A stretch of DNA of 25,683 nt from a virus (IMGVR_UViG_2579778797_000017), one strand, 5' to 3'. Positions 7,639 through 23,151 are shown, counted from the first letter of the stretch. The notes: generated by a model not told the origin, from the sequence alone. Numbers and translations: made by a program.

Positions 7639-11040
<3,402 letters not shown>

Positions 11041-16400: not shown

Positions 16401-16493
16401 ACCATTCAGAAGGTTTTTGATACGGGGAATTTCATTTTTAAACTCTGCCGCATCAATCCCCAAATCAATGACCAGGTTGGCTATCTGGTCCAT
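13428..16493 (-). CDS. H: Tail tape measure protein H
   Basis: Track ORF starts at TTG 16523; the ATG at 16493 is preceded by GGAGGTG and gives MDQIANLVIDLGIDAAEF. 1021 aa, long coiled-coil-like Q/E/R/K-rich centre; C-terminus (...NNDGTNGQIGPAALKVVYD...DGGRLSGAYR) resembles lambda gpH. Confidence 0.9.
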   Translation of the reverse strand: MDQIANLVIDLGIDAAEFKNEIPRIKNLLNGAASDAERSSARMQRFMERQTQAARQTMQAASSAATAASVHAQTVEKSAQAHERMAREVEQTRQRMEALSQKMREEQAQAMALAEAQDKAAAAFYRQIDSVKQASAGLQELQRIQQQIRQARNSGGIGQQDYLALISEVTAKTRVLTQAEEEATRQKVAFIRQLKEQATRQNLSSSELLRAKAAQLGVSSAAEVYIRKMEQAGKATHSLGLKSAAARQEIGVLIGELARGNLGALRGSGITLANRAGWIDTLMSPKGMMLGGVIGGIAASVYGLGKAWYDGQKEGEEFNRQLSLTGHYAGVTAGQLWTLSRAISGNGITQHAAAGALAQVVGSGAFRGNDIGMVARAAAQMERSVGQSVSDTINQFKRLKDDPVNAAKALDNELHFLTATQLEQIRVLGDQGRSSDAARIAMSALAEETGRRTADIDNNLNALGSTLKYLSDLWSRFWDAAMNIGREDSLDEQIAALQEKVSRAKRLPWTASSSQVEYDQQRLNDLQEKKRQKDLQDAKEQAERNYQEQQKRRNAENAALNRMNETEAARHQREIARINSMQYADQAVRDAAIQRENERYEKALASGKKKTRETRNDEATRLLLQYSQQQAQVEGQIAAARQSAGIATEKMTEAHKQLLALQQRISDLDGKKLTADEKSVLARKDELIQALTLLDVKQQELQKQTALNDLKKKTIQLTSQLAEEERAQRQQHDLDIATVGMGDQQRQRYQVQLSLRQKYQQQLEQLRRDSEQKGTYNTDDYRKAEQALTESLNRQLNENRRYWQQLEVVQGNWKNGVLRAFQDFTVDADNTAGTAEQGFSSAFSNMGNGLATFVTTGKLNFKSFTSSVLSDMAKILAQATMMKSIKGIGSVLGFDLSSLSLNANGGIYQSADLSRYSGTVVNRPTFFAFAKGAGVMGEAGPEAILPLRRGADGKLGVVADIGGSGMAMFAPQYNIEINNDGTNGQIGPAALKVVYDLGKKAAADFMQQQARDGGRLSGAYR

Positions 16494-17189
16494 AACGCAC
16501 ACCTCCGGAAATACCTTCCCCAAGATGCATCAGTTCTTCGTCCGTTCGCTCCGGTATCCCGTTCTCTTCCGGTAAAAGGCTGAAATCAGCCACCGCAGCA
16601 TCACTGCTACCGGACACCATTCTCACGATCAATGCCTTCAGCGAGGCAAACTGCGCATCCATCCACACATCACTGAAGCTCTGCATCCGGAAATAATCGC
16701 CCCACTCACCAAGCTCAGTGGCCGACATTTCCGACAGCATCCGCCGCCAGTCTGCCCGCCGGAACTCCCGGGCAAGCCGCATGACAAACTGCATTTCCCG
16801 CGTCAGGACTTTTCCGGCGTCAGCACCTCATGCTCCAAATCCCCGGCATTCTCAATGACTCCCATACCGCTCAGCGACAGAACCATCTCCGCCCCCGCTC
16901 CCAGGGCATCATACGACCATGTTGTAATAACGGATGCGCAAAGCGTCTCAACATCCTGAGACTGTTCCGCATTCCACAGTGAGCGGGAAACCAGCCAGGC
17001 ATTGATATCCATCCCCATCCGCAGAAAAGCAATCTGTCGTTCAGCCTCCGGCAGTTCTCCCTCTTCGGCATCAAACTTTGCCGTTCGCTGCTGAACAAAC
17101 GCCAGATATTCAATTCTCTGCAGCCCGGACAGCTCACTGAGCACCACGGACTGCTTTTCATAATTAAACGTGCCCTGTTTCAGAAACAT
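16465..17189 (-). CDS. GT: Tail assembly chaperone G-T fusion, made by programmed -1 ribosomal frameshift near the end of G
   Basis: The T frame (track ORF 16465..16794) is open upstream to a TGA at 16828-16830 and overlaps the last 22 nt of G in the -1 frame. The only possible shift window contains GGAAAAG (complement of 16809-16815). Same arrangement as lambda G/G-T. Confidence 0.7.
16803..17189 (-). CDS. G: Tail assembly chaperone G
   Basis: Track ORF begins at TTG 17231; tandem ATGs at 17192 and 17189 follow GGAG (complement of 17196-17199) and give M(M)FLKQGTFNYEKQ. The C-terminal part (...EMVLSLSGMGVIE...) matches lambda gpG as recalled. Ends ...LTPEKS, TGA at 16803-16805. Confidence 0.85.
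   Translation of the reverse strand: MFLKQGTFNYEKQSVVLSELSGLQRIEYLAFVQQRTAKFDAEEGELPEAERQIAFLRMGMDINAWLVSRSLWNAEQSQDVETLCASVITTWSYDALGAGAEMVLSLSGMGVIENAGDLEHEVLTPEKS
16809..16815 (-). other. Candidate -1 frameshift slippery heptamer G GAA AAG
   Basis: Minus-strand sequence ...CCG GAA AAG TCC TGA in the G frame; after a -1 slip reads GGA AAA GTC CTG... in the T frame. One base different from the lambda heptamer G GGA AAG as I recall it. Confidence 0.55.
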
Positions 17190-17205
17190 CATGTTCTCCA
17201 CCTGC

Positions 17206-17229
17206 AAAAAAGCCCCGGATAACCGGGGC
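17206..17229 (-). terminator. Intrinsic terminator between major tail gene V and chaperone gene G
   Basis: On the minus strand: stem GCCCCGG / CCGGGGC (plus 17212-17218 and 17223-17229), 4-nt loop, then TTTTTT (complement of 17206-17211), followed by GCAGGTGGAGAAC and the G start. Confidence 0.55.
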
Positions 17230-17249: not shown

Positions 17250-17993
17250 TTAACCTGCGGCGCTGACAGCCACCGCAGCCACTGCCACAAAATCGCCGTC
17301 AGAAGTCATGCCCACAATGCTGACACTGCCCTGCTTCACGCCTTTCACCGTGGCCACAAGCCCGTTCAGGGTCACCGTGGCAGTCTGTGGATCTGTCGAA
17401 TGCACACTGATCGCTTTGTCACTGGCTCCGTCAGGTTTTACTGTAAAGGTCAGCGTGGTGGTTGCTCCCACTTTTACACTGGCAGATGCCGGTGCCACCG
17501 TCAGCCCGGTAACGCTCACTGTTTCAGTGCCTTCCTCTGCCAGATACGGACGCCCCACACCGCTGATTTTCACTGTGCGGGTCATCACGTCTTTTGAGGC
17601 AATGGTTTTACCCAGTGAGCTCAGCCAGCCACGGAAAACATCAACAGTGCCGTTGGGATATTTGATACGAAACGCGCAGACTTCACCGGAGTCGAACAAC
17701 TGAACCAGTTTTTTCTGCCCGCTGTCACCCGGACGCCAGGCCAGCGTCGCCGAAGTATCACCGACGGATTTCTGCCCCTGGGTTGTCGTTTTCCAGTCTG
17801 CATCTTCATCATCGAGATAAGTGTCATCTTCTGCATCAGCGGTCATTTCGCCAGGTTGCAGATCCTTCACCATCGCAAGACGCAGCCAGTCAGTGTCCGA
17901 TAAAGGGTTCGCAAACGCATCGCCCTTGCCGGTGTACATCCAGAACGTCGTTCCCGCACCTTTCGTTTTTGCCAGTGGATTTGGTGTGGTCAT
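17250..17993 (-). CDS. V: Major tail protein V with C-terminal Ig-like domain
   Basis: Track ORF starts at GTG 17999; the ATG at 17993 is preceded by AAGGAGGTG and gives MTTPNPLAKTKGAGTTFWMYTGKGDAFANPLSD, aligning with lambda gpV (M-x-x-PNP...KGAGTT). C-terminal roughly 90 aa are Ig-like (TVTGLTVAPASASVKVGATTTLTFTVKP...). Confidence 0.9.
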   Translation of the reverse strand: MTTPNPLAKTKGAGTTFWMYTGKGDAFANPLSDTDWLRLAMVKDLQPGEMTADAEDDTYLDDEDADWKTTTQGQKSVGDTSATLAWRPGDSGQKKLVQLFDSGEVCAFRIKYPNGTVDVFRGWLSSLGKTIASKDVMTRTVKISGVGRPYLAEEGTETVSVTGLTVAPASASVKVGATTTLTFTVKPDGASDKAISVHSTDPQTATVTLNGLVATVKGVKQGSVSIVGMTSDGDFVAVAAVAVSAAG

Positions 17994-18004
17994 TGCCACC
18001 TCCT

Positions 18005-18406
18005 TTAATTCGTGTACGTGATCTGGTACGTGATTTCCGCCATCGCCCAGGTGGCCATCTCATTATCACGTTGATAGTTAAAACCGAGAGGGATCAGGGT
18101 GTCGATGAGTCCGGAAAGTGCCGGTATATCATTCAGGGCCGGGAAAATGGTGCTCTCCATCCACATATCCAGCTCTGAATCCGGTGCCTGTGCCCGGATG
18201 AAGACAGCAATATGCAGAACAGCCTGCCAGTCATCTTCATCCGTCATTTTTCCGGTGTACTGAGCATCACTCAGCCACACCGCCACGGCAGGCAGTTCCT
18301 GCGCATCAATAAATGCCGGAAGCCCGTCAAAAAACGTGGCGCTGTCTCCACACTGTTCCCGAAGGCGTGCCAGTACGGCCTGGCGGATTTGTGTATGTCG
18401 GTTCAT
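18005..18406 (-). CDS. U: Tail terminator protein U
   Basis: Track ORF starts at 18418; the ATG at 18406 overlaps the Z stop as ATGA (translational coupling) and gives about 133 aa (MNRHTQIRQAVLARL...), close to the 131 aa I recall for lambda gpU. Shares the ATFFDG...PAVAV...DSELD.WMES motifs. Confidence 0.85.
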   Translation of the reverse strand: MNRHTQIRQAVLARLREQCGDSATFFDGLPAFIDAQELPAVAVWLSDAQYTGKMTDEDDWQAVLHIAVFIRAQAPDSELDMWMESTIFPALNDIPALSGLIDTLIPLGFNYQRDNEMATWAMAEITYQITYTN

Positions 18407-18981
18407 CGGGTCAGCCATAACCTCAGTTGTTGTTTCAGTGCATACCCCAGCTGTTTCGGCATTTCCGCAGCAATAATGCGGTCGCGGGCATCTTCAAATG
18501 CCTGTGTCAGCTGTCCGGACAGCGGGACTTTCACCACATCAATGGGGTAACGATTTTTGCCATCAATACGCCGCATCACATGCCAGCGACCATTCGCCAG
18601 TTGCTGAATAAACGCATCCCGGAAAAGATATTTACCCACCTTCAGCACACTGCCACGGTACTGCAGTTTTCCACCACGCCGGGCCAGTCTGACCCGGGCT
18701 GTCCCCAGCTTAATAGCGGGCAGATTGCCCCGGTTAACGCGGATCCTGGCCGTCATTTTTCCTGACGGACTGGCTTTAAACACCCGGACACGCTGACGTA
18801 CCAGTTTCAGGGGGATCCCTTTCACCTGGTTATCTCCCGCAACGGTATTCCCGGCAACCTGCCGGGTGGCGACCGAGACCGCTTTCTGTGCCACACGGTT
18901 TATCGCCCATGCGCTGGCCTGTGGCACCATACGGGTATCAAGGCTGTTCAGATTACGGATGGCATTCTCAAGCCCCTTCAT
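18403..18981 (-). CDS. Z: Tail completion protein Z
   Basis: 192 aa, the length I recall for lambda gpZ. ATG at 18981 preceded by AGAGGTG at 5-nt spacing. Confidence 0.9.
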   Translation of the reverse strand: MKGLENAIRNLNSLDTRMVPQASAWAINRVAQKAVSVATRQVAGNTVAGDNQVKGIPLKLVRQRVRVFKASPSGKMTARIRVNRGNLPAIKLGTARVRLARRGGKLQYRGSVLKVGKYLFRDAFIQQLANGRWHVMRRIDGKNRYPIDVVKVPLSGQLTQAFEDARDRIIAAEMPKQLGYALKQQLRLWLTR

Positions 18982-19670: not shown

Positions 19671-21629
19671 TTACGCCGTACATTTCACCAGACCGCGGTG
19701 ATCAACTGGCGCGACACCGGCGTCAATACGCACTTTCGTTGTCACGCCATCCACACTGAAGCCCTCCATCTGATCAATATATGGCGTATCCACACCGTTG
19801 AGATAAGCCACTTCAATCGTATCGGAGCCTTTTGACGCAGCCAGGTAGAAGGTGGTCTGGCTGTTATCATCAAGACGAGGCTCTGCAATAACGGTCGCAA
19901 AATCTTTCACCGGGTTAATAATACCGGCGTTAATGTCAGCCCCCTTGACACTTGAGGAGCGAATGACCTGGTTAGCAACAGACTCCATCGCCGTCGGTAC
20001 CAGTACGAACGCAGGACGAATATTCAGATGACGCTCCCCCTCTTTCTGAACGCGCATCAACTGGCGGGCTTTATCCAGCGATGCCACGTCCATTGCAGCG
20101 CTCTCCAGTACGTTTGCATGTTTCGCTTTATCGAACAGACTTACATTATCTGTGGAGATTTTCGGGTTAGACGTCAGAATGGCATAAACCAGATCGGCAA
20201 TAGTGGATTTCGCCGCACGGCCCAGTTTCATCGGGACATCGGTCAGCATATTCAGATCATCATTGATAATGGCCTGACGGGTGATACTGAACAGCTCGCC
20301 ATAGGTCGCCAGTGCAATAGTGGCCTGTTTATCTCCGGTGGTGACGTATTTATATTCCGCCCCTTCACGCACCTGACGCAGAGCACTGAAGCCCCCCATA
20401 CCCACACGATGGGCAATTTTAAAATCAGACAACTGACCTTTCCGCGTCCACTGTTCATAGGTTTCAGGGGCATCTTCCCAGCCCTGCAGAATGGCTTTGT
20501 TCGCAACATCCAGCAGAATATTACCGAAGTCAGACGTACTGTGTGTGAACGCCGCACCGACCATCTGCATCGGGTTATAACCGGAAACCCCAATACCCCG
20601 TTCAGTTAGTGACATACGGGCATATTCACGCAGGGTCATCCCGTTGTAGACATTATCACGTTCGGTTTTTTCAAATCCGGCACGCGCCATCAGCGCCTGG
20701 CGAATCCCGTCCCCCACAAAATTACCGTTACCGGCATAAATATGAGCCGGGGTATTTTTATTGGATGGCGTGGACTCGCGCCCCATCTCGTTCAACAGCT
20801 TTTCACGGGCCTGCTCCAGCGAACATTCAGGATCGGCAAGACACTGGGCCTGCAGCGTCTGATAACGCCCGCCAAACATGGCAAACAGATCATTAATACC
20901 GTTTACACGCGCTTTTTGCTCTGCCAGTACCTGCGCACGGATACTGTTTTCATCCACCACGGGTGCTGCTGCCTGCACTGGCGTCCGGGAGGCTGCAGGT
21001 TCATCATCCTGTACGCGTGGAGCACTGTTGCGTGGCGGAGTAATCATGTTTCGAATGGATTCCGGCATCTTTTTAAATTCCTCTGTACGTTTTGACTGAA
21101 TACATGCCATTGCCTTAACGGCTGGTGTCACCTGATCAGCAAATCCCTGTGCCAGACATTCGGCACCGGACATCCAGGTCTCATCCGCCAGCATGGCAGC
21201 AATTTCATCGGTGGTTTTCCCGGTTTTCTGTGCATAAGCGGGTAACAGAACCGCCTCAACTTTATCGAGCAGGTCGGCATAGGTGCGCATGTCCTCCGCA
21301 TCACCGCCCGTAAAGCCAAATGGTTTATGAATCATCATGAAGGAGTTTTCCGGCATAATGACCGGGTTTCCCACCATCGCAATGACCGACGCCATTGACG
21401 CCGCCACACCGTCGACATAAACGGTAATGGACGCACCATGTGTTTTCAGTGCATTAAAAATGGCGATGCCTTCAAAGACATCGCCACCCGGTGAATTAAT
21501 ATGGAGATTAATGTGGGTGATATCGCCCAGTGCATTCAGATCACTGATAAACTGCTTCGCTGTAACACCCCAGAAACCAATCTCGTCATAAATATAAATA
21601 TCCGCGTCACTCTGGTGACCTGCCTGCAT
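19671..21629 (-). CDS. Fused prohead protease (ClpP-like) - scaffold-like linker - major capsid protein (HK97 fold), about 652 aa
   Basis: Continuous ORF (track 19671..21890, 739 aa). The N-terminal part has ClpP-type motifs INSPGG, catalytic Ser in GVAASMASV and His in MIHKP; the middle is a charged, helical Q/E/R-rich stretch; the C-terminal roughly 320 aa look like a major capsid domain. Start moved to the ATG at 21629 (MQAGHQSDADIYIYDEIG), 13 nt after the portal stop; the track start would overlap the portal by about 250 nt. Confidence 0.8.
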   Translation of the reverse strand: MQAGHQSDADIYIYDEIGFWGVTAKQFISDLNALGDITHINLHINSPGGDVFEGIAIFNALKTHGASITVYVDGVAASMASVIAMVGNPVIMPENSFMMIHKPFGFTGGDAEDMRTYADLLDKVEAVLLPAYAQKTGKTTDEIAAMLADETWMSGAECLAQGFADQVTPAVKAMACIQSKRTEEFKKMPESIRNMITPPRNSAPRVQDDEPAASRTPVQAAAPVVDENSIRAQVLAEQKARVNGINDLFAMFGGRYQTLQAQCLADPECSLEQAREKLLNEMGRESTPSNKNTPAHIYAGNGNFVGDGIRQALMARAGFEKTERDNVYNGMTLREYARMSLTERGIGVSGYNPMQMVGAAFTHSTSDFGNILLDVANKAILQGWEDAPETYEQWTRKGQLSDFKIAHRVGMGGFSALRQVREGAEYKYVTTGDKQATIALATYGELFSITRQAIINDDLNMLTDVPMKLGRAAKSTIADLVYAILTSNPKISTDNVSLFDKAKHANVLESAAMDVASLDKARQLMRVQKEGERHLNIRPAFVLVPTAMESVANQVIRSSSVKGADINAGIINPVKDFATVIAEPRLDDNSQTTFYLAASKGSDTIEVAYLNGVDTPYIDQMEGFSVDGVTTKVRIDAGVAPVDHRGLVKCTA

Positions 21630-21642
21630 CCTGAACCAGGAA

Positions 21643-23151
21643 TTATTCTTCGGACTGGTCGTCGGTGTGCTGCGGCTCCTGTCGTTTCGTTGCGGCACTG
21701 CTGCCTCCTTTATCACTGGCCGGATCGGTATCAAATACCAGATCCAGCTTGCGGTTTTCATCAATTTCGGCCTTGCGCCGACGTTTGACATCATCCGGAT
21801 TACGACCACCTGCACGTACCCAGTCTGATTCTGTCGCCGCTCCACCACGAATCTGAATTTTCCAGGCCTCAGCCTCCTTAACAGGGTCAATCCACGGCAT
21901 CACCGGTCCGGAATACACCGCGGTATACAGTGAAGAACGATCAAGATCGCGGGGTAGCCTGATAACACCGGATGCCACAGCCTGTTTCAGCCAGGCACGA
22001 TACATCGGGCGGGTGACGGCACCAATAAACCAGTCCTGCAGGATCAGGTAGCCATCAGTGGATTCAACCAGCTCCTGACGCTGGGCGCTGTAAGTGCCGT
22101 TATAGTTGCGTGCCGTACTGGAAAAACTCAGACGACTGCCCGCCGCCACGGCACGCAACTGACCATTACGAAAAGTTTCAAGGTTAGGATTGGGACGATC
22201 CGACTTCACCATTCCGATTTCTTCGCCGGGTTTCAGATCGTCGTAAATAATGCCTGGCTGAATGGTAAGCTCGCGTTCATTCTCCTTGCTGCCATTACCA
22301 TCCGGTTCATAGCTCTGCCCGTCGCCTTTCCGGATGTACATCCCCAGAGCAGCGGCGATCCTTGCTGCAGTCAGCTCAGAATCTTCATACTCTTTCAGGG
22401 CACTGAGGCGGATCAGCACACCGGACAACAAAGACGTCCCGCGCATCTGGTGCAGACGGCGAACAAATTTAAGATGCAGCATTCGCTCTGCATCCACTTC
22501 TTTGGTTTCCATCTGCCGCCCGGATACGGGACGGCTTTTATACACCAGATATTTTTCGGGACGCCCCCAGTCATCAACAAACACGCCCTGATTCAGCCTG
22601 TTGCTCTCATCACTGGTCATGGGAATAAAGTCCGGCTCGAGCGCCTCCAGCCAGAAATGAACACCGGCAGAAGGCGTCAGGCTGTTTATGCGCCCGGAAA
22701 CCATCTGGGCAAACACCTCACCATCGCGCAGCCAGGTACGCAGCATCAGACGTTCCAGCATCGGACGGGTAAACTGCCCGGTGACTTCCGGACTGACAGA
22801 CCATTCACTCCATCGGGTGCGTATCTCCGCTGCCAGATCACGGGCAATGGCCCCATTGCGTAATACCGGATGTGGCTCGACAATAATCCCGTTTTTCCCC
22901 ACCACCCGTTCTTCCAGCTTGTCAAATACACCAATAACCAGATCGTGGTTGTTATCAAGGTAACGGGCCTGCTCACGTAACGACACGGCCCCGTACTGGC
23001 TTAACTGGTCGGCAGTTCGGTTTTCCCGCCGGGCTTTGTGTGTCCGTGTCGTTTTTACGGCCTCATAAGCCTGGATCACCGCACGGGAACGCAGCCTTGC
23101 CGCTTTCCATCCTGGTGAAAAAACGCCAATCACATCATCAAGAATTGCCAT
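21643..23151 (-). CDS. Portal protein (lambda gpB-like family)
   Basis: Track ORF 21643..23223; the ATG at 23151 (MAILDDVIGVFSPGWKAARLR...) is preceded by GAGGG and shares one nucleotide with the W stop, giving 502 aa. Acidic C-terminal tail. Sits between W and the protease/capsid gene. Confidence 0.85.
   Translation of the reverse strand: MAILDDVIGVFSPGWKAARLRSRAVIQAYEAVKTTRTHKARRENRTADQLSQYGAVSLREQARYLDNNHDLVIGVFDKLEERVVGKNGIIVEPHPVLRNGAIARDLAAEIRTRWSEWSVSPEVTGQFTRPMLERLMLRTWLRDGEVFAQMVSGRINSLTPSAGVHFWLEALEPDFIPMTSDESNRLNQGVFVDDWGRPEKYLVYKSRPVSGRQMETKEVDAERMLHLKFVRRLHQMRGTSLLSGVLIRLSALKEYEDSELTAARIAAALGMYIRKGDGQSYEPDGNGSKENERELTIQPGIIYDDLKPGEEIGMVKSDRPNPNLETFRNGQLRAVAAGSRLSFSSTARNYNGTYSAQRQELVESTDGYLILQDWFIGAVTRPMYRAWLKQAVASGVIRLPRDLDRSSLYTAVYSGPVMPWIDPVKEAEAWKIQIRGGAATESDWVRAGGRNPDDVKRRRKAEIDENRKLDLVFDTDPASDKGGSSAATKRQEPQHTDDQSEE

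What the first reader, a model, noticed from the sequence alone, without database searches (positions are those of the whole stretch)
16806..16830. G/G-T programmed -1 frameshift conserved, but with a variant slippery heptamer GGAAAAG
The T-frame ORF overlaps the end of G in the -1 frame, and the T frame is closed by a TGA only 22 nt upstream of the G stop, so any shift must occur in that window. The only slippery candidate is G GAA AAG, where lambda has G GGA AAG as I recall it. The A-site Lys codon AAG to AAA re-pairing is preserved; the P-site codon is GAA (Glu) instead of GGA (Gly), so re-pairing would need a G:U-type mismatch. The G:G-T ratio is thought to matter for tail assembly, so a changed heptamer may mean a different frameshift efficiency.
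Basis: partly seen in the sequence, partly recalled or inferred. Interest (0 to 1): 0.5.

Follow-up and report, generated by a model that had tools for sequence, protein, structure and literature searches.

The report
Known lambda-type G-T tail frameshift site
This is the usual ribosomal -1 frameshift site that fuses the two tail-assembly chaperone genes G and T of a lambda-like E. coli prophage; its GGAAAAG signal differs from lambda's GGGAAAG but is already annotated in other phages and is the commonest form in this gene family, so the finding is correct but ordinary.

Summary
On the minus strand, gene G (Pfam Phage_TAC_2) ends at TGA 16805-16803. The T frame (Pfam Phage_tail_T) is the -1 frame and is closed upstream by TGA 16830-16828. 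The only shift-prone motif in the 22 nt between is G GAA AAG (16815-16809). Lambda has G GGA AAG at the homologous position, and the predicted fusion proteins align colinearly across the junction.

The motif is not new or rare. GenBank records of phages N15 and LLS annotate GGAAAAG as the -1 slippery sequence. phi80, HK225, mEp460, Gifsy-1, Gifsy-2 and Fels-1 carry it too. In 32 sequence clusters of G-T loci from Enterobacterales, 26 have GGAAAAG and 3 have GGGAAAG.

The first G is invariant in 32/32 clusters although it is the third base of a variable codon. This argues that P-site tRNA-Glu re-pairs GAA to GGA with a middle G·U pair. No conserved downstream RNA structure was found. An SD-like GAGGTG lies 8 nt upstream here but is not family-wide. 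In vitro, G GAA AAG is less slippery than G GGA AAG, so a lower G-T yield is plausible but untested.

This exact allele occurs in 1,848 of 5,426 complete E. coli genomes.

Verdict: already known, low interest.

The parts
16803..17192 (-). Gene G, tail assembly chaperone (129 aa from ATG 17192; PGAP starts it one codon later, at ATG 17189). Stop codon TGA at 16805-16803.
   Evidence: Pfam PF06894 Phage_TAC_2, E = 7e-40. ORF and translation. PGAP product name 'phage tail assembly chaperone G' on an identical copy.
16809..16815 (-). Shift site G GAA AAG, written in the G frame. In the -1 frame it reads GGA AAA G. It is positionally homologous to lambda's G GGA AAG.
   Evidence: Heptamer positions 1, 2, 4, 5 and 6 are invariant in 32 of 32 clusters. 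The same string is annotated as the slippery sequence in N15 and LLS.
16465..16809 (-). T part of the predicted G-T fusion, read in the -1 frame from the re-read G at 16809 (…PEK|VLTREMQF…) to the stop at 16467-16465. The predicted fusion protein is 242 aa.
   Evidence: Pfam PF06223 Phage_tail_T, E = 5e-15. Fusion translation. Colinear alignment with the lambda, Gifsy-1, Gifsy-2 and Fels-1 fusions.
16828..16830 (-). TGA that closes the T frame upstream. It sets the 5' limit of the 22-nt window in which the shift must occur.
16824..16829 (-). SD-like GAGGTG, 8 nt upstream of the heptamer. It is a possible lineage-specific stimulator of the shift.
   Evidence: Six-base match to the SD consensus. 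Anti-SD duplex energy -9.3 kcal/mol, in the top 6% of positions in the same G gene. It reads GAGGCG in the mEp460 subgroup and is absent in the N15 and phi80 types.
16792..16794 (-). ATG that PGAP uses as an independent start for T. It is not conserved and is probably only an internal Met of the fusion protein.
   Evidence: One search shows the PGAP model. In the 32-cluster alignment these columns are ATG in only 2 clusters and mostly CTG or CGC elsewhere.
17206..17229 (-). Terminator-like hairpin with a T-run between V and G (GCCCCGG-TTAT-CCGGGGC-TTTTTT). It is context for G/T/H expression, not part of the shift signal.
   Evidence: Annotated as a terminator in Ayreon and mEp460, and as a stem-loop in N15.

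Best explanation
This is the programmed -1 ribosomal frameshift site of the lambda-type tail assembly chaperone pair G/G-T, in a lambdoid E. coli prophage of the mEp460/cdtI/Ayreon type. Most ribosomes read ...CCG GAA AAG TCC TGA and release the 129-aa protein G. A small fraction slip back one base while tRNA-Glu (on GAA) and tRNA-Lys (on AAG) occupy the P and A sites. tRNA-Lys re-pairs perfectly with AAA. tRNA-Glu re-pairs with GGA through G:C, a middle G·U pair, and A:U. Translation then continues with GTC CTG ACG... and yields a 242-aa G-T fusion (...TPEK-VLTREMQF...). By analogy with lambda, the G part of the fusion binds the tape measure protein and the T part recruits the major tail protein. 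Shown here: the gene identities, the frame geometry, homology to the lambda shift site, conservation of the heptamer including its synonymous first G, and the absence of a conserved T start or RNA structure. Inferred: that the fusion is made, that two tRNAs slip together rather than one, and the efficiency of the shift. Efficiency is probably at or below lambda's roughly 4%, and may be raised in this allele by the upstream GAGGUG.
For: The gene order U-V-G-T-H is backed by strong Pfam hits.

The T frame is the -1 frame and is open only 22 nt before the G stop, with a single slip-capable motif in that stretch.

The fusion proteins of the window, Gifsy-1, Gifsy-2, Fels-1 and lambda align without a gap at the junction, with the Lys invariant.

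GGAAAAG is kept in relatives that are only 67-70% identical at the DNA level. It is also kept in loci from about 20 genera at 37-66% protein identity.

By cluster the counts are 26 GGAAAAG, 3 GGGAAAG, 2 GGCAAAA and 1 GGGAAAA.

Heptamer positions 1, 2, 4, 5 and 6 are invariant. Position 1 is the third base of a codon that varies (CCG, GCG, CTG, TTG, GTG, ACG, ATG). G-ending codons for those amino acids make up only 33-57% in the same genes, and adjacent synonymous sites have 1.8-2.0 bits of entropy.

The ATG at 16794 is not conserved.

Curated records annotate the same string as the slippery site and join the CDS there: N15 AF064539 and LLS PQ299149. The Gifsy-1 and Gifsy-2 records call T part of a frameshift product.

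Phages carrying this very allele are viable isolates, including mEp460, cdtI, Ayreon and Tritos.

Lambda's G/G-T frameshift and the importance of its ratio are established (Levin 1993 and Xu 2013/2014, as summarised in PMC5009743 and PMC3296357).
Against: There is no direct protein evidence for a G-T fusion from this allele.

The motif is not a canonical X_XXY_YYZ heptamer. In a reconstituted E. coli system, AUG GAA AAG gave mainly 0-frame product at all EF-G concentrations and was described as unfavourable for slippage (PMC6924986).

A bare A_AAG is barely above background in vivo without a stimulator: 0.15% against 0.11% (PMC4066793).

No conserved downstream structure was found, and the SD-like element is not family-wide.

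How a useful level of frameshifting is reached is therefore not explained.
Confidence: 0.9

Rival explanations
1. The same programmed -1 frameshift occurs, but only tRNA-Lys slips (A_AAG, an NNA_AAG 'hexanucleotide' motif). The P-site tRNA-Glu does not re-pair, so the first G of the heptamer plays no part.
For: NNA_AAG motifs such as CGA_AAG and CAA_AAG support low-level -1 shifts in bacteria (Licznar 2003, as summarised in PMC5009743). [quoted passage not shown] The rare family variant G GCA AAA has poor P-site re-pairing potential.
Against: Heptamer positions 1 and 2 are GG in 32 of 32 clusters. Position 1 is a synonymous site of a variable codon, where only 33-57% G would be expected. That constraint has no explanation if the P-site tRNA does not re-pair. 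A_AAG alone is nearly inert without a strong stimulator, and none is conserved here.
Confidence: 0.3
2. T is translated on its own from ATG 16794, as PGAP annotates it, and no frameshift is needed.
For: An in-frame ATG exists 12 nt after the G stop. RefSeq calls T a separate CDS starting from it.
Against: That ATG is present in only 2 of 32 clusters, and most have CTG or CGC there. No good SD precedes it (GCGGGAAATG). T-frame protein conservation (K-V/A-L-x-x-E) begins at the heptamer, upstream of the ATG. In lambda, T is reported as made through the frameshift (Levin 1993, as cited in PMC3296357; that it is made only this way is my recollection). The N15, LLS and Gifsy records annotate a frameshift product.
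Confidence: 0.05
3. The G-T fusion comes from transcriptional slippage: RNA polymerase drops one A in the A-run.
For: The motif contains a run of four A.
Against: From general knowledge, productive transcriptional slippage needs homopolymer runs of about 8-9 or more, and four A is too short. Conservation of GG before the run and of G/A after it fits tRNA re-pairing rather than polymerase slippage.
Confidence: 0.01

Closest known systems
Bacteriophage lambda G / G-T programmed -1 frameshift (slippery sequence G GGA AAG; Levin, Hendrix & Casjens 1993; Xu, Hendrix & Duda 2004, 2013, 2014)
   Same: Homologous G and T proteins, the same gene order V-G-T-H, the same -1 geometry, and the same Lys codon AAG to AAA in the A site. 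The shift site is at the homologous position of the protein alignment.
   Different: The P-site codon is GAA (Glu) rather than GGA (Gly), so the heptamer is G_GAA_AAG and not a canonical X_XXY_YYZ. Re-pairing has a G·U pair in the middle position rather than at the wobble position. The G stop lies 3 nt after the heptamer rather than 15 nt. T is shorter, at about 113 aa after the shift against 139 in lambda.
Phage N15 genes 14/15 (GenBank AF064539), phage LLS genes 11/12 (PQ299149), and phi80, HK225, Gifsy-1, Gifsy-2 and Fels-1
   Same: The identical heptamer GGAAAAG sits at the homologous place. N15 and LLS explicitly annotate it as the -1 slippery sequence. Gifsy-1 and Gifsy-2 annotate T as part of a frameshift product.
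   Different: These proteins are only 36-60% identical to the window's. In the N15 and phi80 types the G stop is 15 nt downstream and there is no SD-like element upstream.
NNA_AAG hexanucleotide and A_AAG tetranucleotide -1 shift motifs of bacteria (IS3, IS1222, B. subtilis cdd; Licznar 2003; Sharma 2014)
   Same: The shift-prone core is tRNA-Lys moving from AAG to AAA, after a codon that ends in A.
   Different: Those sites rely on pseudoknots, hairpins or SD elements, and no conserved structure is found here. Here the base before the GAA codon is invariably G, which points to partial P-site re-pairing.
E. coli dnaX frameshift signal (A AAA AAG with an upstream SD and a downstream hairpin)
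   Same: The A-site codon AAG is decoded by the single tRNA-Lys. In this allele an SD-like GAGGUG lies upstream within the 6-17 nt range used for such stimulators.
   Different: There is no downstream hairpin, the P-site codon is not AAA, and the expected efficiency is far lower than dnaX's.

Membership tests
Lambda-type G/G-T tail assembly chaperone frameshift | Two overlapping ORFs located between the major tail protein gene and the tape measure gene | tested here: met
   V (PF16461), G, T and H (PF06791, PF09718) lie in that order on the minus strand.
Lambda-type G/G-T tail assembly chaperone frameshift | The upstream ORF is a gpG homologue and the downstream ORF a gpT homologue | tested here: met
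   PF06894 with E = 7e-40 and PF06223 with E = 5e-15.
Lambda-type G/G-T tail assembly chaperone frameshift | The downstream ORF is in the -1 frame and has no conserved initiation site of its own | tested here: met
   Frame check. The ATG at 16794 is present in only 2 of 32 clusters.
Lambda-type G/G-T tail assembly chaperone frameshift | A conserved slippery sequence in the overlap, in the G frame | tested here: met
   G GAA AAG lies at the position homologous to lambda's G GGA AAG. Five of its seven positions are invariant in 32 clusters.
Lambda-type G/G-T tail assembly chaperone frameshift | A G-T fusion protein is made at a low fixed ratio to G and is needed for tail assembly | not testable with these tools
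   This needs protein analysis or genetics. The only indirect support is that phages with this allele are viable isolates.
Canonical X_XXY_YYZ tandem-slippage heptamer | XXX are three identical bases, giving cognate or wobble P-site re-pairing | tested here: not met
   X_XX is G_GA. Re-pairing of tRNA-Glu to GGA needs a G·U pair in the second position (PMC6924986).
Canonical X_XXY_YYZ tandem-slippage heptamer | YYY are three identical bases and Z allows A-site re-pairing | tested here: met
   A_AAG: tRNA-Lys pairs with both AAG and AAA (PMC4066793).
A_AAG / NNA_AAG single-tRNA slippage motif | An AAG codon preceded by A in the 0 frame | tested here: met
   GAA AAG in the G frame.
A_AAG / NNA_AAG single-tRNA slippage motif | Identity of the base two positions further 5' is irrelevant, because the P-site tRNA does not re-pair | tested here: not met
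   That base is G in 32 of 32 clusters although it sits at a synonymous position of a variable codon.
dnaX / IS-type stimulated frameshift signal | A conserved downstream hairpin or pseudoknot | tested here: not met
   The window's fold has z = -0.68 against shuffles. RNAalifold on 32 sequences gives -1.4 kcal/mol and 0 compensatory pairs. There is no Rfam hit.
dnaX / IS-type stimulated frameshift signal | An SD-like sequence 6-17 nt upstream | tested here: inconclusive
   This allele has one: GAGGTG with 8 nt spacing and -9.3 kcal/mol. It is absent in the N15 and phi80 types. Family-wide enrichment is weak (Wilcoxon p = 0.02 on non-independent data).

The most novel reading that the evidence does not exclude
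G_GAA_AAG would be a genuine selected two-tRNA slippage heptamer and the ancestral, majority signal of enterobacterial lambda-type G/T genes. It would work without any RNA stimulator, through a middle-position G·U re-pairing of tRNA-Glu that in vitro work classes as unfavourable. Both slipping tRNAs (Glu and Lys) carry mnm5s2U34. The G:G-T ratio of these phages would then be set differently from lambda's and would depend doubly on the host Tus/MnmA thiolation pathway. Lambda's GGGAAAG would be a derived, more slippery version.
Probability: 0.3. Interest if true: 0.35.

Novelty: already known. Interest (0 to 1): 0.15.

Why it matters
The practical value is mostly for annotation. RefSeq/PGAP calls G and T as two separate genes for this allele, starting T at a non-conserved ATG. 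The allele is present in about a third of complete E. coli genomes, so the 242-aa G-T fusion is missing from those protein sets.

Scientifically, the survey shows that the textbook lambda heptamer is the minority form of its own family. The common form, G_GAA_AAG, is not a canonical X_XXY_YYZ motif, yet its first G is under strong constraint. That makes a clean natural test case for how much P-site mispairing bacterial ribosomes tolerate, and for how the chaperone ratio is tuned. None of this changes what is known about how tails are assembled.

Tried and rejected
Downstream stimulatory RNA structure. The window's 116 nt starting at the heptamer fold no better than shuffles (z = -0.68). The consensus fold of 32 diverged sequences is -1.4 kcal/mol with no compensatory pairs. 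T-frame third positions downstream stay variable. Rejected.

Known RNA families. Rfam at E up to 10 returns only chance hits far below their gathering scores.

A family-wide upstream SD stimulator. Enrichment is weak, and the element is absent in the N15 and phi80 lineages. I keep it only as a possible lineage-specific helper in this allele.

A stop codon next to the site as a general stimulator. The G stop lies 0, 3 or 15 nt after the heptamer in different clades, so this is not a common feature.

Independent T initiation and transcriptional slippage. Both are rejected, as set out under the rival explanations.

Literature. Licznar 2003 (which I recall measured NNA_AAG motifs, probably including GAA_AAG) could not be opened. 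I did not try to open Xu 2004. A full-text search for GGAAAAG together with 'slippery' found nothing. I therefore could not find an in vivo efficiency for G_GAA_AAG, and could not check whether Xu 2004 lists it.

Significance of the bare heptamer. It is not enriched in the window.

Full report
**1. The observation**

I read the minus strand from 17400 to 16300 and translated all frames. Gene G ends ...ACG CCG GAA AAG TCC TGA, with the stop at 16805-16803. The frame one base back carries TGA at 16830-16828. It is then open for 120 codons, to the stop at 16467-16465. A ribosome moving from G into that frame must therefore shift within the 22 nt from 16827 to 16806.

The G-frame codons in that stretch are GTG, CTG, ACG, CCG, GAA, AAG and TCC. 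Only AAG can re-pair one base back, to AAA. The ATG at 16794 is there. Lambda's G GGA AAG was checked in NC_001416 rather than taken from memory. As a bare string GGAAAAG is unremarkable: it occurs 6 times in the window against 3.7 expected. Its meaning comes from its frame, its position and its conservation.

**2. What the genes are**

Pfam gives Phage_tail_U for 18005-18418. For 17250-17999 it gives the lambda tail tube protein plus a Big_2 domain. G matches Phage_TAC_2 (gpG) at E = 7e-40. The -1 frame ORF matches Phage_tail_T at E = 5e-15. The 1021-aa ORF that follows has tape-measure domains. This is the lambda tail module in the order U-V-G-T-H.

An identical copy in E. coli 504838 is annotated by PGAP as portal, ClpP-protease/capsid fusion..., 'phage tail assembly chaperone G', 'phage tail assembly protein T', and tape measure. 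G and T are separate CDSs, and T starts at the ATG.

The same G-T DNA, at 97% identity or more, occurs in the isolated phages Ayreon, phi458, cdtI, mEp460, Tritos, HannyBb and others. It also occurs in 1,848 of 5,426 complete E. coli genomes.

**3. Homology of the shift site**

I built the predicted fusion protein (G through Lys AAG, then the -1 frame) for the window, Gifsy-1, Gifsy-2, Fels-1 and lambda. They align colinearly, with no gap at the junction and with the Lys invariant...TPEK|VLTREMQF... here against ...SAGK|VFDGELSF... in lambda. The site is therefore the positional homologue of lambda's and differs by a single G-to-A change.

**4. Does GGAAAAG recur?**

It does, very widely. Gifsy-1, Gifsy-2 and Fels-1 are 67-70% identical in DNA and all carry CCGGAAAAG followed by one codon and TGA.

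I scanned one genome per bacterial species with the alignment (69 loci) and the IMG/VR viral contigs (80 loci). I then parsed the overlap of every locus. With the phage records added, 150 loci collapse into 32 clusters at 90% identity. Of these, 26 carry GGAAAAG, 3 GGGAAAG, 2 GGCAAAA and 1 GGGAAAA.

The GGAAAAG clusters come from Escherichia, Salmonella, Citrobacter, Kosakonia, Kluyvera, Leclercia, Atlantibacter, Enterobacter, Trabulsiella, Phytobacter, Pluralibacter, Superficieibacter, Providencia, Sodalis, Symbiopectobacterium and others.

On a quick neighbour-joining tree of the fusion proteins, GGAAAAG is found in every major clade. GGGAAAG appears at least twice: in lambda plus E. albertii, nested among GGAAAAG lineages, and separately in Edwardsiella. 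So lambda's heptamer looks derived.

Three caveats apply. The tree has no bootstrap support. The clusters are not independent. The scan patterns came from my own five-sequence alignment.

By raw copy number within E. coli, the lambda-type allele is the more abundant one: 6,793 places in 3,704 genomes, against 2,030 places for the window's allele and 38 for the phi80 type. I did not check the heptamer in every one of those places.

**5. It is already annotated**

The N15 record (AF064539) has a misc_feature 'slippery sequence for -1 translational frameshift' at 10027-10033, and that sequence is GGAAAAG. The phage LLS record (PQ299149) has a joined CDS and a misc_feature 'minus-one programmed translational frameshift site GGAAAAG'. 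phi80, HK225 and mEp460 carry the same string in the overlap. The Gifsy-1 and Gifsy-2 records describe T as part of a frameshift product. The motif is therefore public knowledge, even though the records for this particular allele (Ayreon, mEp460, RefSeq E. coli) do not join the CDS.

**6. Mechanism: one tRNA or two?**

Anchoring the 32 clusters on the heptamer gives zero entropy at positions 1, 2, 4, 5 and 6. Position 3 is A in 26 clusters, G in 4 and C in 2. Position 7 is G in 29 and A in 3.

Position 1 is the third base of the preceding G-frame codon. That codon varies over CCG (10 clusters), GCG (12), CTG (6), TTG, GTG, ACG and ATG, which is six amino acids, yet it always ends in G. In the same G genes, G-ending codons make up only 41% (Pro), 36% (Ala), 57% (Leu), 39% (Val) and 33% (Thr) of usage. 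The neighbouring third positions at -3, -6 and -9 have 1.8-2.0 bits of entropy.

Even if each of the five amino-acid states with synonymous alternatives (Met has none) is counted only once, the chance that all use a G-ending codon is about 0.01. This constraint is what one expects if the P-site tRNA, whose first-position partner is C36 for every GNA codon, must re-pair with a codon that begins with that G.

For tRNA-Glu (anticodon UUC, mnm5s2U34) on GGA, the pairs would be G:C, G·U and A:U. I therefore favour a tandem slip with near-cognate P-site re-pairing over a pure A_AAG slip. The alternative is not excluded.

**7. Efficiency and stimulators**

The literature points to low intrinsic slipperiness. 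In E. coli a bare A_AAG is barely above background (0.15% against 0.11%) and reaches 5.6% only with the IS3 pseudoknot, whereas G_GGA_AAG is among the three best heptamers (PMC4066793).

In a reconstituted E. coli system, AUG GAA AAG was chosen as the 'unfavourable' comparison. It gave mainly 0-frame product at every EF-G concentration, while G GGA AAG slipped readily (PMC6924986).

Lambda's site gives about 4% (Levin 1993, as cited in PMC3296357). The roughly 30:1 ratio of G to G-T matters for tail assembly (PMC5009743).

I looked for compensating stimulators:

- **Downstream structure.** None. The window's fold has z = -0.68. The consensus fold of the 32 clusters is -1.4 kcal/mol with no compensatory pairs. 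Rfam finds nothing.
- **Upstream SD.** This allele has GAGGTG (16829-16824) 8 nt before the heptamer, with a predicted anti-SD duplex of -9.3 kcal/mol, in the top 6% of its own gene. The mEp460 subgroup has GAGGCG there. The N15 and phi80 types have nothing. Family-wide enrichment is weak: mean -4.4 against -3.2 kcal/mol, Wilcoxon p = 0.02 on non-independent data.
- **Position of the G stop.** It lies 0, 3 or 15 nt after the heptamer, depending on the clade.

No general stimulator is therefore evident. I could not open Licznar 2003, which I recall measured NNA_AAG motifs and probably GAA_AAG among them.

**8. A further inference**

Host 2-thiolation of U34 (the Tus/MnmA pathway) modifies tRNA-Lys, tRNA-Glu and tRNA-Gln. 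Its loss raises lambda G-T frameshifting and impairs the phage (PMC3296357). With G GAA AAG, both slipping tRNAs are substrates of that pathway. In lambda only the A-site tRNA is: to my knowledge tRNA-Gly(UCC) lacks s2. This predicts a stronger dependence on thiolation for GGAAAAG phages. It is speculation and was not tested.

**9. Rivals**

Independent initiation of T at ATG 16794 is unlikely for three reasons. The ATG is present in 2 of 32 clusters. It has no convincing SD. Conservation of the T-frame protein starts at the heptamer, upstream of the ATG. Transcriptional slippage on four A is implausible on general knowledge.

**10. Verdict**

The feature is the well-known G/G-T frameshift. 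Its heptamer is the family's common form and is already annotated in N15 and LLS. Novelty: already known. Interest is low (0.15). What remains of interest is that the majority signal of this family is a non-canonical heptamer with a strongly constrained first G and no detectable stimulator.

Noticed in passing
window 17206-17229 (minus strand): A strong terminator-like hairpin with a T-run (GCCCCGG-TTAT-CCGGGGC-TTTTTT) sits between the V stop and the G start. It is annotated as a terminator in Ayreon and mEp460 and as a stem-loop in N15. It may lower G/T/H transcription relative to V.
   Followed up: partly
window 16465-16794 (minus strand); L160 6438-6767: PGAP/RefSeq annotates T as a stand-alone CDS starting at a non-conserved ATG and does not join it to G. 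The G-T fusion protein is therefore missing from the annotation of an allele found in 1,848 complete E. coli genomes.
   Followed up: yes
L047-L058 and L066-L068 (genome-contig hits): G-T sequence identical to lambda's turns up in assemblies labelled Neobacillus, Oceanobacillus, Kitasatospora, Shewanella, Pseudomonas, Leeuwenhoekiella, Chromatium, Pseudoxanthomonas, Psychrobacter and others, often on short low-coverage contigs. This looks like lambda DNA contamination of those assemblies.
   Followed up: no
L006, L012, L039: Enterobacterial prophage G-T loci (E. coli-type in L006 and L012 at 93-98% identity, phi80/Enterobacter-type in L039) occur in MAGs labelled Bacillota, 'Proteobacteria' and Geobacteraceae. 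Mis-binning or contamination is the likely cause.
   Followed up: no
L014, L016, L027, L044, L060: One clade (Kluyvera genomosp. 1, Ewingella, three Providencia species) has the G stop codon immediately after the heptamer: GGCAAAA TAG, GGAAAAG TAG and GGGAAAA TAG. The G GCA AAA version has poor P-site re-pairing potential. A slip with a stop codon in the A site may operate there.
   Followed up: partly
window 16809-16829 (minus strand) and homologous positions in all 32 clusters: Just before the shift site, G ends in a conserved peptide E-x-[VL]-[TS]-[PA]-[EG]-K. The Glu codon GAR at -14 to -12 is present in at least 29 of 32 clusters (position -14 is G in 31, position -13 is A in 30). The acidic linker upstream of it is highly variable in both length and sequence. 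Whether this conservation reflects protein function or part of the frameshift signal is unknown.
   Followed up: no
window 19671-21890 (minus strand): There is a 739-aa ORF (ORF listing, first start codon TTG) for a ClpP-like prohead protease fused to the major capsid protein; PGAP annotates a 675-aa fusion protein at the homologous place on an identical copy. This is typical of this group of lambdoid prophages.
   Followed up: no
L159 802-819 (mEp460 record), roughly window 16574-16591: The mEp460 GenBank record annotates a rho-independent terminator inside gene T. My scan of the window found no terminator-like site there.
   Followed up: partly
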